In this document: positions 1,270 to 3,124 of the stretch, one piece after another
Layout: the number at the start of each line of letters is the position of its first letter
How positions within the stretch are numbered: the stretch's first letter is position 1
Source of the DNA: a virus
Virus record (IMG/VR): IMGVR_UViG_3300045988_078288
DNA length: 64,000 nt
Strand: one strand, 5' to 3'
Made by a program: the position numbers and the translations under genes
The notes under the pieces: generated by a model
The model's input: only the letters and a program-made list of their open reading frames with translations
Databases searched by the model: none
What the model was told of the DNA's origin: nothing

Positions 1270-1427
1270 AGTTAATAGTACATTCATAATGTTTTTAAAG
1301 ACTTTTGTTTCGTCGTGAGACGGTTTTCTACATTCATTAGATCGTATTTATGATTATTAGACAAACAAGTTTCAGGCGTGAAACGAAACCTGTGGTCGTC
1401 GCGAGGTGGTCGCAGGTTTTAAAACAA

Positions 1428-1558
1428 CGCGGAGTGGTGCAAAGGTAAGCACATGTGGGTCAGATTTTTCACAGGGTTAATATCGCTCATAATTAGTTAG
1501 TCATAAGTTAAATAGGCAGTTAGCCCCACAGGATGCGGTGTCGTAACCGCCTCCGCGA
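1428..1558 (+). ncRNA. tRNA-shaped element A (131 nt) with a 67-nt segment in place of the anticodon loop
   Basis: Acceptor CGCGGAG/CTCCGCG has 7 Watson-Crick bp. U8 is present. D-arm is GTGC-AAAGGTAA-GCAC. Anticodon-stem strands TGTGG (1454-1458) and CCACA (1526-1530) sit at canonical offsets. The variable loop is 4 nt. The T-arm-like hairpin GCGGT-GTCGTA-ACCGC is 1 nt short and lacks the TTCGA consensus. Confidence 0.4.
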
Positions 1559-1677
1559 CAGAATACTTAAATTTGTTGTTGTTTTAGCGAAAACACATTT
1601 TGTAACAATTTAAATTATTGATGGTAAAACATTGTTGTCAGCTCGCAAATCTGCGAAGACAAGCGGGTTTTTAACAA

Positions 1678-1800
1678 GGTCGGAAGGTACGATGGGTACC
1701 AGGGATTGTATGGAGAGGCGTTCTGATTTTTTGAGTCGCCAGCTTTTTTCTTACGCCTGAGCCTCGGATGGTTTCTGCGGTTCGACTCCGCTTCCGACCA
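1678..1800 (+). ncRNA. tRNA-like element B (123 nt): acceptor stem plus canonical T-arm around a non-canonical core
   Basis: GGTCGGA (1678-1684) pairs with TCCGACC (1793-1799). T-arm is TGCGG-TTCGACT-CCGCT. A short D-like hairpin GTAC-GATGG-GTAC is present. About 75 nt lie between the D-arm and T-arm instead of about 22. Confidence 0.4.
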
Positions 1801-2119
1801 CAAAGTAAAAACGCTCTTTGAATTATTGACACACAGAAGAAAGGCATATAGGACGGCGCGAGACTGACAATCCAAGACCGCCGCCCGAGGATGCCGAGTA
1901 ACGAAAGACCTATTAAAGCATCTCCTGACGTAGCGAAAGCCGTGAAAGCGGATAGAATGAACCATGTCGAACTCTGAATTGTCGGCACAGGCAAAGCAAA
2001 AGGGAATGCAGTAGGCTGCACGCTCGTCGTGCAAGACGGTCGCACCGCAAAAGGTCTATAAAGGTGCGAAAAACAACAGACAGAGACTTTTCAGTGTTTG
2101 TCATATTATATAATCAAAG

Positions 2120-2207
2120 AGGAGAGTGCGCGATTGGTAAGGCGAAGTCCTCGGAACTTTATACGAATTCCGGGACTATGATACTGGTTCGATTCCAGTC
2201 TCTCCTC
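2120..2207 (+). tRNA. tRNA-like gene C (88 nt) with a non-canonical extended anticodon arm; isotype not assignable
   Basis: Acceptor AGGAGAG/CTCTCCT. U8 is present. D-arm is CGCG-ATTGGTAA-GGCG. Anticodon-stem strands AGTCC (2146-2150) and GGACT (2173-2177). Variable loop is 5 nt. T-arm is ACTGG-TTCGATT-CCAGT. However, 22 nt (not 7) lie between the anticodon-stem strands. Confidence 0.5.
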
Positions 2208-2279
2208 CTGCTTTCTAATTCTTTTTAATTGGGTTAATAGGAATATGTAACTGATAATTTAATGGTATTAAGATGGGTT

Positions 2280-2317
2280 GTGTGTGCCGTTCGCGAGAAT
2301 AGCACACATTATTTTTT
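2280..2317 (+). terminator. rho-independent terminator closing the first RNA cluster
   Basis: Stem TGTGTGC (2281-2287) pairs with GCACACA (2302-2308), followed by TTATTTTTT. Confidence 0.6.
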
Positions 2318-2335
2318 AACTAAAAAGAAACTAAC

Positions 2336-2836
2336 GTGAAGCAAACGAACATCTACAGCCACAAGGGATGGCTAAAAGACATAACAATTCGGGAATACCC
2401 GTATTCTTCTGCCGGGGAGATAGCCGCAAGACACGGCGTTTGCAGCGGCAGCGTCTGGTATTGGGTTAAAAAACTGGGCCTCCAGCAGACGGACGAGACG
2501 AAAGCCCGAATACTCAAAAAGACACGGGGGTGTATCGCAAACACAATCAGGACAAATCCCGAGGCCAAACGAAAAAGCATGGAAACGAAAAAGCGCACAT
2601 GGATGATGGAGCGATTTCGCGTAATGTCGGGTCTGCCTCAGAGAACAAAGATGCGCATTGCGACGCGACCCACCAAGGTGTACAAGGCAATATGGTACCT
2701 GGAGAATATGCGCAACTACTTTCGCGACATCGAGGTGGGCGGCAAGTTTACGCTCTACTACGACGACGAGACGAAACGCTCCGACAAGGAGTGCTGCTAC
2801 GCACAACAACTTGGACTCACATTCAAAAAAGCATAG
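2336..2836 (+). CDS. HTH-domain protein of unknown function embedded in the RNA island
   Basis: 166 aa with a GTG start. N-terminal HTH (SAGEIAARHGVCSGSVWYWVKKLGL) and a basic remainder. Confidence 0.55.
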   Translation: MKQTNIYSHKGWLKDITIREYPYSSAGEIAARHGVCSGSVWYWVKKLGLQQTDETKARILKKTRGCIANTIRTNPEAKRKSMETKKRTWMMERFRVMSGLPQRTKMRIATRPTKVYKAIWYLENMRNYFRDIEVGGKFTLYYDDETKRSDKECCYAQQLGLTFKKA

Positions 2837-2951
2837 TTTTTTGTACATTATTATATGTTTTACTTAAAAATGAGTTGCTAAAGGACAACTCTCGGGTGTG
2901 AATCCCGATTTTTGATTTTACTTGGTTGTCGCGGCGACTTCGGTCGTCCAA

Positions 2952-3111
2952 TGAAGTTGTGGTATAGGCGCCTGGTAAGCTATACAAGCTCGCAAGCAAG
3001 GAGCGACGGGTCCTTTTTTCTTTCTATGTTTGAGATAACTTTTCAGCCCTTCGTGTACCAAGCCTCTGGGGAGTAATAAACACCAAGCAGGTTCAAATCC
3101 TGCAACTTCGC
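2952..3111 (+). ncRNA. tRNA-like element D (160 nt): acceptor/T-arm frame with a long internal expansion
   Basis: TGAAGTT (2952-2958) pairs with AACTTCG (3104-3110), with U-G at 1:72. Canonical T-arm GCAGG-TTCAAAT-CCTGC (3087-3103). D-like hairpin GTATAG-GCGCCTGGTAAG-CTATAC. About 100 nt lie between the D-like hairpin and the T-arm. Confidence 0.35.
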
Positions 3112-3124
3112 AAATCAAAAAACA

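What the first reader, a model, noticed from the sequence alone, without database searches (positions are those of the whole stretch)
1320..3124. 1.8-kb RNA island directly behind the lysogeny switch, with one embedded HTH gene
In an otherwise tightly packed genome, this stretch holds four tRNA-framed elements, a structured spacer, a strong terminator (2280-2317) and a single protein gene (2336..2836, HTH plus a basic tail). The elements are all on the plus strand, downstream of the rightward switch promoter. They would therefore be made early after infection or induction. An array of non-canonical tRNA mimics as an early transcription unit is not a described phage module as far as I know.
Basis: inference. 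Interest (0 to 1): 0.65.

Follow-up and report, generated by a model that had tools for sequence, protein, structure and literature searches.

The report
Phage island of tRNA-shaped RNAs
Just after the lysogeny switch, a family of human-gut Prevotella/Leyella phages carries a conserved block of RNA genes: tRNA-shaped RNAs that cannot decode, placed on either side of a previously undescribed ~320-base folded RNA whose function is unknown.

Summary
Window 1270-3124 is the only long non-coding stretch in a 90%-coding phage genome. It holds E1-E4, which are tRNA-shaped RNAs whose anticodon arm is replaced by an insert. It also holds a fifth mini tRNA-like junction, four GNRA-capped hairpins with U-runs, and one real gene (2336-2836).

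None of these RNAs is a decoding tRNA. ARAGORN finds none. Rfam's tRNA model accepts only E3, and relatives carry E3 and E4 with no anticodon arm at all.

The array is not decayed. Acceptor, D and T stems are kept by compensatory changes. E1, the "spacer" and the hairpins vary as little as codon positions 1-2, while the linkers vary freely.

The "structured spacer" (X, 1801-2119) is the core. It is 310-322 nt long, pseudoknotted, and has at least seven covarying helices. It matches no Rfam family. It occurs once per genome in four phage clades, with a tRNA-like module directly upstream in all four and directly downstream in A-C.

Best reading (inferred): the tRNA-like modules are RNase P / RNase Z handles that cut out and stabilise X and the tRNA-framed RNAs from the early transcript. 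A decoy role against tRNA-directed defences remains possible. The closest known case is GOLLD/ROOL RNAs near phage tRNA islands.

The parts
1310..1323 (+). Hairpin TCGTC-GTGA-GACGG followed by TTTTC. It lies after the HTH_17 gene and is terminator-like.
   Evidence: Found by the terminator scan and read directly from the sequence.
1369..1419 (+). Two hairpins. The first is GTTTCA-GGCG-TGAAAC (1369-1384). The second is a 15-bp stem capped by GCGA (1386-1419), followed by U1420. Together they end 8 nt before E1.
   Evidence: Sequence and alignment. Only 21% of columns vary in clade A, as low as codon positions 1-2.
1428..1558 (+). E1, a tRNA-framed RNA. It has acceptor CGCGGAG/CTCCGCG, D arm GTGC-AAAGGTAA-GCAC, and a deviant T arm GCGG(T)-GTCGTA-(A)CCGC. 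About 75 nt replace the anticodon arm. It is found only in clade A. Its T stem is the same as that of E2, so it is probably a duplicate of E2.
   Evidence: Fold and alignment. 28% of columns vary. It is absent from clades B, C and D. Not detected by ARAGORN, Rfam or my scan.
1642..1672 (+). Hairpin CTCGC-AAA-TCT-GCGA-AGA-CAA-GCGGG followed by TTTTT, 5 nt before E2. Clades B and C have the equivalent hairpin TTC-GTGA-GAA at the same place.
   Evidence: 19% of columns vary.
1678..1800 (+). E2, a tRNA-framed RNA. It has acceptor GGTCGGA/TCCGACC, D arm GTAC-GATGG-GTAC, T arm with loop TTCGACT, and discriminator A1800. A 7-bp stem stands where the anticodon stem would be and opens into a 60-100 nt insert. 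The base of the insert is conserved (ATGGAKAGGG ... CCYGAGCCTCGG). The tip of the insert differs completely between lineages.
   Evidence: Scan. The acceptor exists in four fully complementary versions: GGTCGGA/TCCGACC, GACCGAA/TTCGGTC, CGGCAGA/TCTGCCG, and GGCAAGG/CCTTGCC in clade C. The D stem is compensated, GTAC/GTAC to GTGC/GCAC.
1801..2119 (+). X, a conserved structured RNA of 310-322 nt in clades A and B. Helices:
- long-range P1 (1813-1831 with 2053-2067), which uses the loop of hairpin Px (2042-2046/2062-2066)
- P2 1844-1848/1892-1896
- P3 1852-1859/1877-1884
- P4 1909-1921/2006-2015
- P5 1962-1969/1982-1990
- P6 2018-2022/2028-2032
- 3' hairpin P7 at about 2079-2102

Motifs that are invariant or nearly so in all clades: GTTCTTTGA, CGAAAGACC, GAACC, GTCTATAAA.
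   Evidence: In the core, 93.8% of cells are paired, against at most 47% when the partners are slid. 8 of 20 pairs change on both sides. A covariance model of the core hits the window once (1895-2019, 144.7 bits), and hits clades B, C and D at 88, 60.5 and 50.1 bits. No Rfam family matches at E<=10. It is not coding.
2120..2207 (+). E3, a tRNA-like RNA that starts directly at the end of X. It has acceptor AGGAGAG/CTCTCCT, a D loop with GG, and T loop TTCGATT. In place of an anticodon arm it has a 33-nt arm: a 10-bp bulged stem with an 11-nt loop. Part of clade A (L008, L011, L018, L031, L088) and all of clades B and C lack this arm.
   Evidence: Rfam tRNA scores are 37.3 bits (window), 37.1 (L033) and 37.8 (L026). 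Variants are listed. Acceptor and T stems are 100% paired, with compensatory changes.
2281..2317 (+). Hairpin (T)GTGTGC-CG-TTC-GCGA-GAA-TA-GCACAC(A) followed by TTATTTTTT, 19 nt before the ORF start.
   Evidence: The motif TTCGYGAGAA occurs once in 64 kb. The same capped hairpin occurs in clades B, C and D at other places in the island.
2336..2836 (+). Gene for a 166-aa protein. It has an N-terminal three-helix HTH-like bundle, a long basic helical hairpin and a small C-terminal alpha/beta domain. It belongs to no named family.
   Evidence: Codon-phase variation 31/35/73. No hit in Pfam, PHROGs, NCBIfam or PDB. About 20 homologue clusters, all unnamed. AF2 and Foldseek results.
2864..2916 (+). 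Mini tRNA-like three-way junction. Its closing stem is AAAAA/TTTTT, one hairpin is GAGTTG/CAACTC, and the T-arm-like hairpin is TCGGG-TGTGAAT-CCCGA.
   Evidence: All three stems are compensated between sublineages: AAGCCG/CGGCTT, GCAGG/CCTGC and AAAAC/GTTTT. Picked up by the relaxed scan.
2933..2948 (+). Hairpin GGCGAC-TTCG-GTCGTC just 5' of E4. Sublineages have unrelated hairpins at this spot.
2952..3111 (+). E4, a tRNA-framed RNA. It has an acceptor of 7-8 bp (GAAGTTG/CAACTTC), a 6-bp D stem GTATAG/CTATAC with a GG loop, and T arm GCAGG-TTCAAAT-CCTGC. About 105 nt replace the anticodon arm. The insert contains the invariant TCTATGTTTG (3023-3032). In clade B, E4 is a 58-nt element with no arm.
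   Evidence: Scan. Compensated variants: acceptor GGGATTG/CAATCCC, D stems TCATGG/CCATGA and ACATGG/CCATGT.

Best explanation
The island is a conserved operon of non-coding RNAs in temperate Prevotella/Leyella phages.

The tRNA-shaped modules derive from tRNA genes, but they keep only what tRNA-processing enzymes read: acceptor stem, T arm and D arm, that is, the top half plus the elbow. They no longer decode.

Inferred mechanism:
1. Host RNase P cuts at the 5' end of each module.
2. RNase Z cuts after each discriminator base. The CCA-adding enzyme may then extend the end.
3. The transcript is thereby cut into discrete, nuclease-resistant RNAs.

The main product would be X (1801-2119). E2 ends where X starts, and E3 starts where X ends.

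X is the part under the strongest constraint and is presumably a trans-acting RNA of still unknown activity. E1, E2 and E4 would be RNAs presented on a tRNA scaffold.

Shown: the structures, their conservation, the covariation, and the exact adjacency of the modules.
Inferred: transcription, the cleavage events, and any activity of X.
For: Selection acts on the frame, not on the anticodon arm:
- The arm of E3 is present or absent among close relatives (87 nt versus 57-59 nt). It is absent in clades B and C, yet all three versions pass Rfam's tRNA cut-off.
- E4 is 159 nt in clade A and 58 nt in clade B.
- The tip of the E2 insert exists in at least four unrelated versions.
- Acceptor, T and D stems are kept by compensatory changes.

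X behaves like a discrete product:
- Its length is nearly constant (310-322 nt) in clades A and B, even though different internal hairpins have been gained and lost.
- A tRNA-like module lies directly upstream in clades A-D, and one lies directly downstream in A-C.
- It occurs once per genome.

Constraint is modular. The fraction of variable columns is 0.24 in X, 0.28 in E1 and 0.19-0.22 in the capped hairpins. It is 0.19/0.22/0.44 at codon positions 1/2/3 of the ORF, and 0.6-0.9 in the linkers.

The strand is settled. G-U pairs and the tRNA model fit only the + strand.

Host tRNA genes next to the prophage also lack an encoded CCA, so CCA-less modules fit the host's processing route.

Precedent: a tRNA-like domain in bacterial YrlA RNA is cut by RNase P and receives CCA in vivo (PMC4201824).
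Against: - No expression or end-mapping data exist.
- Four hairpin + U-run signals lie inside the presumed unit (1310, 1386, 1642, 2281). They could stop transcription before the modules, so either read-through or internal promoters must be assumed. Only weak promoter candidates exist, at 1568 and 3025.
- In sublineage A2, E2 has lost the canonical T loop (GTCGCA) and the GG of its D loop. E1 also has a deviant T loop. Elbow recognition is therefore not kept everywhere.
- A pure punctuation role does not explain why the E1 insert and the base of the E2 insert are conserved.
- In clade D, the element directly 3' of X is a stem-closed structure without a T loop.
Confidence: 0.45

Rival explanations
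1. Decoys. The tRNA-shaped RNAs are made early in large amounts. They bind, and so titrate, host defence or toxin proteins that recognise the tRNA body, such as nucleases or acceptor-end modifying toxins. Because they have no cleavable anticodon arm, or a scrambled one, they survive. X may be part of the same counter-defence.
For: - The phage invests in RNA repair and anti-defence elsewhere. It carries RtcB at 12139-13314 (Pfam E 1e-63), followed by a Tad2-like fusion protein.
- The arms diversify quickly, or are lost, on conserved frames. That pattern fits an arms race.
- Defence nucleases that cut off the tRNA anticodon arm are known, and phage tRNAs escape them through changes in the anticodon stem (PMC12445682).
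Against: - No defence system was identified as a target.
- No acceptor stem or arm copies either of the two host tRNAs seen next to the prophage.
- The loop of the E3 arm varies and does not look like an anticodon loop.
- The rival does not explain why X is the most conserved part, or why modules directly adjoin X.
- RtcB lies 9 kb away, so the link rests on context only.
Confidence: 0.2
2. Cis-acting leader. The whole 1.0-1.8 kb is a regulatory leader of the delayed-early operon. X and the tRNA-like folds control read-through of the conserved capped terminators, either as RNA-based antitermination or as a sensor. The HTH/basic protein might bind the TTC-GNGA-GAA hairpins.
For: - The island lies between the switch genes and the recombination/replication genes in all four clades.
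- There are four GNRA-capped hairpins with U-runs. They are as conserved as X and rare in the rest of the window.
- One such hairpin sits 19 nt before the ORF.
Against: - An RNA that acts in cis on the transcribing polymerase should not be flanked by elements that invite its excision.
- Three of the four terminator-like hairpins lie upstream of X.
- The capped hairpin sits at different places in different clades, and in clade C the copy before E2 has no U-run.
- Homologues of the protein occur without the RNAs.
Confidence: 0.15
3. Decayed tRNA array. These are pseudo-tRNAs left over from an ordinary phage tRNA cluster, with insertions in the anticodon region and no present function.
For: - The frames clearly descend from tRNAs.
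- Some frames have lost canonical T and D loops (E1; E2 in sublineage A2).
- Arms are gained and lost.
Against: - Stems are maintained by compensatory substitutions in E2, E3, E4 and the mini module.
- E3 keeps the tRNA core well enough to pass Rfam's cut-off in three clades whose X sequences are only about 53% identical.
- E1 varies as little as codon positions 1-2 of the ORF.
- The module order is kept across four clades.
Confidence: 0.05
4. Intron-containing tRNAs. The inserts are removed and the halves are joined by the phage RtcB ligase, giving working tRNAs.
For: - The phage encodes RtcB, which is annotated as a tRNA-splicing ligase.
- The inserts lie where tRNA introns lie.
Against: - E3 and E4 exist with no anticodon arm at all, so nothing could be spliced into a decoding tRNA.
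- No conserved anticodon can be identified.
- ARAGORN run with introns allowed finds nothing at default stringency.
- No group I intron or ribozyme family matches.
- No splicing endonuclease was seen among the ORFs scanned.
- The genome uses the standard code and has no evident need for extra tRNAs.
Confidence: 0.03

Closest known systems
GOLLD and ROOL RNAs (large ornate RNAs of phages and prophages)
   Same: - Large, pseudoknotted RNAs without protein-coding capacity, encoded by phages or prophages.
- Often next to tRNA islands. tRNAs are sometimes embedded in the GOLLD linker (PMC12286853).
- GOLLD has a conserved 3' domain and a variable 5' part. Here the order is likewise variable E1/E2, then conserved X.
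- Function is unknown.
   Different: - X is 320 nt, against about 580 nt (ROOL) and more than 800 nt (GOLLD).
- The Rfam models of both give no match.
- The neighbours of X are non-decoding tRNA-like modules rather than real tRNAs.
- The hosts are Bacteroidota.
- Oligomerisation was not tested.
Stable 'species 1 / species 2' RNAs in the tRNA gene cluster of phage T4
   Same: Non-tRNA stable RNAs that are co-transcribed with tRNAs, have tRNA-like termini, and mature through the host tRNA-processing enzymes. Their function is still unknown.
   Different: - The T4 RNAs sit among eight real tRNAs in a lytic phage.
- Here there are no real tRNAs, the phage is temperate, and the island lies behind the lysogeny switch.
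MALAT1-mascRNA type processing and mitochondrial 'tRNA punctuation' (from my own knowledge)
   Same: A tRNA-like fold directly 3' (or 5') of a long RNA is used as an RNase P / RNase Z cleavage signal that defines the end of the long RNA.
   Different: - Those are eukaryotic or organellar systems.
- Cleavage has not been shown here.
Bacterial Y RNA YrlA (tRNA-mimicking module)
   Same: - A non-decoding RNA with acceptor-, D- and T-like arms.
- It is cut by RNase P and CCA-tailed in M. smegmatis, occurs in some phages, and is linked to rtcB operons (PMC4201824).
   Different: - In YrlA the RNA ends emerge where the anticodon stem would be, and they form the Ro60-binding stem. Here the ends are at the acceptor stem.
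- No Ro60/TROVE gene was found among the ORFs scanned.
- No Rfam Y RNA family matches.
tmRNA
   Same: The topology is the same: a tRNA-like frame (acceptor plus T arm) whose anticodon arm is replaced by a large insert.
   Different: - No G3-U70 pair, no plausible tag reading frame and no pseudoknot series.
- ARAGORN finds no tmRNA at default stringency.
Phage-encoded tRNAs that replace or escape host tRNAs cut by defence nucleases
   Same: These are tRNA-shaped phage RNAs whose anticodon arm is altered so that they resist nucleases (PMC12445682).
   Different: - Those are functional decoding tRNAs.
- The modules here have no anticodon arm, or a non-tRNA arm, and cannot replace a tRNA.

Membership tests
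Canonical (decoding) tRNA | 7-bp acceptor stem, D arm and T arm with a T-loop, in cloverleaf order | tested here: met
   E2, E3 and E4 pass my frame scan. E3 passes Rfam RF00005 at 37.3 bits. E1 meets this only in part, because its T loop is deviant.
Canonical (decoding) tRNA | 5-bp anticodon stem with a 7-nt loop and a conserved anticodon | tested here: not met
   In E3, 21 nt stand where the model has 6. The arm is absent in relatives. E1, E2 and E4 carry inserts of 60-105 nt. The loop of the E3 arm varies.
Canonical (decoding) tRNA | Recognised by a tRNA gene finder | tested here: not met
   ARAGORN finds 0 genes in 64 kb. It also finds none with introns allowed at default stringency.
tmRNA | tRNA-like domain with G3-U70, a tag reading frame and pseudoknots, detected by ARAGORN | tested here: not met
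   No tmRNA at default stringency. Only low-threshold 'permuted' calls with implausible tags appear. No acceptor stem has G3-U70.
GOLLD / ROOL | Match to the family covariance model (Rfam) | tested here: not met
   No match at E<=10 in 1-4500 with permissive filters, and none at gathering score in the window.
GOLLD / ROOL | Large structured RNA of phages or prophages, placed in or beside a tRNA island | tested here: met
   X has at least 7 covarying helices, is encoded by a prophage, and lies between tRNA-like modules.
GOLLD / ROOL | Homo-oligomeric cage assembly | not testable with these tools
   This needs SEC or cryo-EM of transcribed X.
YrlA / Y RNA | Adjacent Ro60 (TROVE) gene, and a Ro-binding stem formed by the RNA's own 5' and 3' ends | tested here: not met
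   No TROVE domain in the 38 window ORFs scanned against Pfam. The ends of the modules form the acceptor stem instead. No Rfam hit. Not every ORF of the window was scanned.
tRNA with group I intron / ribozyme-flanked phage tRNA (e.g. HDV-like theta ribozymes) | Match to an intron or ribozyme model, and a decoding tRNA once the insert is removed | tested here: not met
   No intron or ribozyme family matches at E<=10. The phage does not recode stop codons. Armless variants exclude a decoding product. Whether Rfam 15 holds a specific model for theta ribozymes was not checked.
RNase P / RNase Z processed tRNA-like handle (mascRNA-type) | Cleavage at the 5' end of the fold and after the discriminator base; CCA addition | not testable with these tools
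   Only the structural prerequisites are shown: an acceptor-T minihelix of 12 bp, and an elbow in E3, E4 and in E2 of sublineage A1 and clades B and C.

The most novel reading that the evidence does not exclude
X is a new class of phage 'ornate' RNA, a Bacteroidota counterpart of ROOL and GOLLD. It works together with its armless tRNA-like partners. The partners are processed and CCA-tailed like tRNAs, but they serve as non-cleavable tRNA mimics. Either alone or assembled with X, they neutralise a tRNA-directed host defence or capture a host tRNA-binding factor early in infection.
Probability: 0.15. Interest if true: 0.85.

Novelty: new variant of a known kind. Interest (0 to 1): 0.68.

Why it matters
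Large structured phage RNAs next to tRNA islands (GOLLD, ROOL) are known to form striking RNA-only assemblies, yet they have no known function. This island offers a smaller case that may be easier to study:
- It lies in an abundant human-gut lineage, Prevotella/Leyella. A sequenced isolate strain, Leyella stercorea MSK.21.24, carries it.
- The accompanying 'tRNAs' have been stripped down to the acceptor/T/D frame. That narrows the possible reasons why tRNA shapes accompany such RNAs: processing, stabilisation, or recognition by proteins that bind the tRNA body. Decoding is excluded.
- It adds a new RNA family. X has no counterpart in Rfam 15.
- It provides natural examples of RNAs displayed on a tRNA scaffold.
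- Gene finders report nothing in this region, so such islands are probably under-counted in phage genomes.

Tried and rejected
- **ARAGORN with introns and lowered thresholds.** It returned only weak, mutually inconsistent calls. Dropped.
- **tmRNA, including permuted forms.** Only sub-threshold calls with implausible tags.
- **Rfam, all 4227 families, at E<=10.** Apart from the tRNA hit for E3, only chance hits appeared (miRNA, snoRNA, PCA3, RAGATH-7). The mir-4922 and MIR6024 'hits' at 690-774 are the operator palindromes of the switch.
- **X as an RNase P-like RNA.** A few short motifs recalled RNase P conserved regions. The RNase P models give no hit, and the compensatory change at P1 (C-G to U-A) supports a different pairing for the candidate strand.
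- **Protein-coding on the minus strand (ORFs 1615-2034 and 1671-2045).** Codon-phase variation is flat (48/50/49 and 44/45/42). There are many 1-2-nt indels. The antisense ORFs of clades A and B show no meaningful similarity.
- **Suppressor tRNAs or stop-codon recoding.** The window is 90% coding under the standard code, with ORFs of 2556 and 1677 aa.
- **E1 insert as a mimic of the 5' UTR of the HTH_17 gene.** A 17-nt repeat suggested this, but it is not conserved in relatives.
- **Long-range pairing 1795-1810 with 2916-2931.** The second arm is not conserved.
- **Pairing of the conserved E2 motif CCYGAGCCTCGG with CCGAGG in X.** The variants do not covary.
- **L057.** It matched a 17-nt probe, but the match is a chance hit inside a coding region.
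- **GenBank phages.** No DNA match. The only protein match, MT836190.1, lacks the RNA module.
- **Function of ORF166.** Pfam, PHROGs, NCBIfam, PDB sequence search and Foldseek gave nothing beyond a weak HTH signal.
- **Literature searches** for armless tRNA-like RNAs in phages found no description of this module.

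
Full report
**1. Setting**

The first 6 kb of the window are the early region of a temperate phage.
- A cI-like HTH_3 repressor lies at 150-644 on the minus strand.
- It faces a cro-like gene (855-1028) and an HTH_17/excisionase-like gene (1072-1269).
- Between them are operator palindromes (704-760) and a Bacteroidetes-type -7 box, TACCTTTG, at 755-762.
- After the island come small ORFs, then DUF4494, a 279-aa ORF I read as RecT-like (it matches only a PHROG family of unknown function), and ORFs I read as an exonuclease and an SSB from their position and sequence. 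These last three readings were not tested.

The window is 90% coding under the standard code. Outside the island the largest gap is 343 nt, against 1066 nt for 1270-2335.

Relatives are known from 25 IMG/VR contigs, 39 metagenome contigs (those whose names carry a source say human gut) and two genomes: a Prevotella sp. MAG and Leyella stercorea MSK.21.24. In long host contigs the prophage lies beside host tRNA-Thr(CGT) and tRNA-Gly(CCC). Those host genes do not encode CCA.

**2.

ARAGORN finds no tRNA in 64 kb. Rfam finds one, at 2120-2207 (37.3 bits, cut-off 29), with 21 nt where the model has 6.

I wrote a scan for a tRNA frame with any insert up to 420 nt at the anticodon position. The frame was defined as a 7-bp acceptor, a D hairpin with GG, a 5-bp T stem closed by G-C, and a TTCNA loop. 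The scan finds exactly three sites on both strands: E2 (1678-1799), E3 (2120-2206) and E4 (2952-3110). Twenty shuffles gave a mean of 0.25.

E1 (1428-1558) has an acceptor stem and a canonical D arm, but its T loop is deviant.

A relaxed scan adds a 52-nt mini tRNA-like three-way junction at 2864-2916.

The hairpin 2281-2308 with its U-run is present.

ORF 2336-2836 is a real gene. Variable columns by codon position are 31/35/73.

**3. Not decoding tRNAs, and not debris**

I aligned the island from 17 contigs of the window's clade (A) and compared it with three more distant clades: B (L033 type), C (L026) and D (L125). This gives a consistent picture.

The anticodon arm is dispensable:
- E3 is 87 nt with a 33-nt bulged arm in the window. 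It is 57-59 nt with no arm in L008, L011, L018, L031 and L088. It is also armless in clades B and C. All three versions still score 37-38 bits with Rfam's tRNA model.
- E4 is 159 nt in clade A and 58 nt without an arm in clade B.
- The tip of the E2 insert exists in at least four unrelated versions. L018 has about 150 extra nt inside E1.

The frames are maintained by compensation:
- The E2 acceptor occurs as GGTCGGA/TCCGACC, GACCGAA/TTCGGTC, CGGCAGA/TCTGCCG and GGCAAGG/CCTTGCC.
- The E4 acceptor occurs as GAAGTTG/CAACTTC or GGGATTG/CAATCCC. Its D stem occurs as GTATAG/CTATAC, TCATGG/CCATGA or ACATGG/CCATGT.
- The acceptor and T stems of E3 are 100% paired in 16 distinct sequences, with three pairs changed on both sides. 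Over the whole fold, 95.8% of cells pair, against at most 51% with slid partners.
- All three stems of the mini module are compensated.

Constraint is modular. Within clade A, the fraction of variable columns is:

| Region | Fraction of variable columns |
|---|---|
| X | 0.24 |
| E1 | 0.28 |
| Capped hairpins | 0.19-0.22 |
| ORF codon positions 1 / 2 / 3 | 0.19 / 0.22 / 0.44 |
| Linkers | 0.6-0.9 |

That can be set aside. A tRNA origin is nevertheless evident. E1, which shares the T stem of E2, looks like a clade-A duplicate of E2.

**4. The 'spacer' is the core**

X (1801-2119) starts directly after the discriminator of E2 and ends directly at E3. Its length is 310-322 nt in 48 distinct sequences of clades A and B, although different hairpins have been gained or lost.

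RNAalifold together with manual helix tables gives these helices:
- a long-range P1 (CTTTGAnTTATTGAC with GTCTATAAAG), which uses the loop of a local hairpin Px, so the arrangement is pseudoknot-like;
- P2, P3 (with a conserved A-C mismatch), P4a/b, P5 and P6;
- a 3' hairpin.

Compensation is seen in P1c, P2, P4a, P4b, P5, P6 and Px.

For the core (P4, P5 and a small hairpin), 93.8-93.9% of cells pair, against at most 47% with slid partners. Between 7 and 8 of the 20 pairs change on both sides. P5 is 100% paired across four clades, with four covarying pairs.

I built a covariance model of the core. It hits the window once (1895-2019, 144.7 bits). It hits clades B, C and D at 88, 60.5 and 50.1 bits. 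These sequences, or near-identical ones, were used to build the model.

X matches no Rfam family at E<=10. It is not coding on either strand.

**5. Hairpins**

Four hairpins capped by G[CT]GA and followed by U-runs lie in the island, at 1310, 1386, 1642 and 2281. Such hairpins are rare in the rest of the window.

A specific form (lower stem, 2-nt internal loops, then TTC-GYGA-GAA) occurs once per genome in all four clades, but at different positions: before the first ORF in A and D, and before E2 in B and C.

These hairpins are probably terminators. Their conservation suggests that they are regulated or bound by a protein. This was not resolved.

**6. The protein**

The 166-aa product has about 20 homologue clusters, all unnamed. 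Pfam, PHROGs, NCBIfam and PDB give no hit.

The AF2 model (pLDDT 74) shows three parts:
- an N-terminal three-helix bundle, which Foldseek matches only weakly to HTH domains;
- a long basic helical hairpin;
- a small C-terminal domain.

The gene follows the RNA module in clades A-C and lies 1.3 kb further downstream in clade D. Homologues also occur without any such RNA, in MT836190.1. A dedicated RNA-protein partnership is therefore not supported.

**7. Mechanism**

Shown:
- a conserved set of + strand RNA structures;
- selection on tRNA frames but not on anticodon arms;
- a constant-size RNA with a tRNA-like module directly upstream in all four clades and directly downstream in three.

Inferred, and the reading best supported (0.45):
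- The modules are handles for RNase P, RNase Z and perhaps the CCA-adding enzyme.
- These enzymes excise and stabilise X and the tRNA-framed RNAs from the early transcript.
- Precedents are tRNA-like processing signals elsewhere and the RNase P-cut, CCA-tailed YrlA.

Weak points:
- the terminator-like hairpins inside the unit;
- the loss of the elbow in some E2 lineages;
- the conservation of the E1 insert and the base of the E2 insert, which implies functions of their own.

Rivals:
- decoys for defences that bind the tRNA body (0.2), suggested by the phage's RtcB and Tad2-like genes and by known nucleases that cut off the anticodon arm;
- a cis-acting antitermination leader (0.15);
- a decayed tRNA array (0.05);
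- spliced tRNAs (0.03).

**8. Comparison and novelty**

The closest described situation is that of GOLLD and ROOL. These are large phage or prophage RNAs of unknown function, near or containing tRNAs. X fails their models. It is therefore not a member of those families, but it resembles them in its setting.

The armless, non-decoding tRNA-like modules resemble tmRNA in topology. They resemble mascRNA-type elements and YrlA in their likely use of the tRNA-processing machinery. They fail the defining tests of tmRNA and YrlA.

I rate this a new variant of a known kind. It consists of a new RNA family (X) plus a conserved array of stripped-down tRNA frames, in a widespread gut phage lineage.

Noticed in passing
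window 12139-14049 (+): An RtcB RNA ligase gene (12139-13314; Pfam E 1e-63, PHROG 'tRNA splicing ligase') is directly followed by a protein that joins a crAss001_48 domain to a Tad2-like (Thoeris anti-defence 2) domain (13342-14049). This looks like an RNA-repair / anti-defence pair, 9 kb from the RNA island.
   Followed up: partly
window 2281-2317; L033 about 5165-5138 (-); L026 about 4640-4612 (-); L125 4813-4850 (+): A hairpin with the apex TTC-G[CT]GA-GAA, 2-nt internal loops and a 5-6 bp lower stem, usually followed by a U-run, occurs once per genome in all four clades. Its position differs: before E2 in B and C, and before the first ORF in A and D. It may be a regulated terminator or a protein-binding site.
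   Followed up: partly
window 3023-3032: The invariant TCTATGTTTG inside the E4 insert matches the Bacteroidetes -7 promoter box TAnnTTTG. It could be an internal promoter for the genes that follow. In clade B, E4 has no insert and so lacks this box.
   Followed up: no
window 3207-3362 (+): A small Cys-rich ORF of 51 aa (CxxC ... C ... W.W.Y) is conserved directly after the island in clades A, C and D (L026 about 3150-3030 (-); L125 about 5240-5345). It is probably a zinc-ribbon protein.
   Followed up: no
L096 2412-2588; L084 8095-8271: Host tRNA-Thr(CGT) and tRNA-Gly(CCC) lie about 150 nt from the repressor end of the prophage, so this is the likely integration site. These host genes do not encode CCA.
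   Followed up: partly
window 1050-1066 and 1502-1518: A 17-nt direct repeat (88% identical) links the 5' UTR of the HTH_17 gene to the E1 insert. Relatives do not keep this UTR sequence, so the repeat is probably chance.
   Followed up: yes
L018 about 4940-5110 (-): One relative carries about 150 extra nt inside the E1 insert. The tRNA frame therefore tolerates large insertions.
   Followed up: no
L033 4216-4470 (-); L125 4864-5103 (+): Clades B and D have an extra conserved ORF of 79-84 aa between the RNA module and the HTH gene. Clade A lacks it. It has no family assignment.
   Followed up: no
window 690-774: Rfam 'microRNA' hits (mir-4922 at E 8e-4, MIR6024) fall on the AT-rich operator palindromes between the repressor and cro-like genes. 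They are false positives caused by the inverted repeats.
   Followed up: yes
window 15074-15577 and 23729-24667 (+): Two HNH endonuclease genes are present, the second with NUMOD4 motifs. These are probably homing endonucleases. A radical-SAM-like ORF lies at 18979-19989.
   Followed up: no
L126 (MT836190.1) about 4600-5900: Two tandem paralogues of the 166-aa HTH protein, each with an extra N-terminal HTH, occur in an unrelated human-faecal phage contig that has no RNA module.
   Followed up: partly
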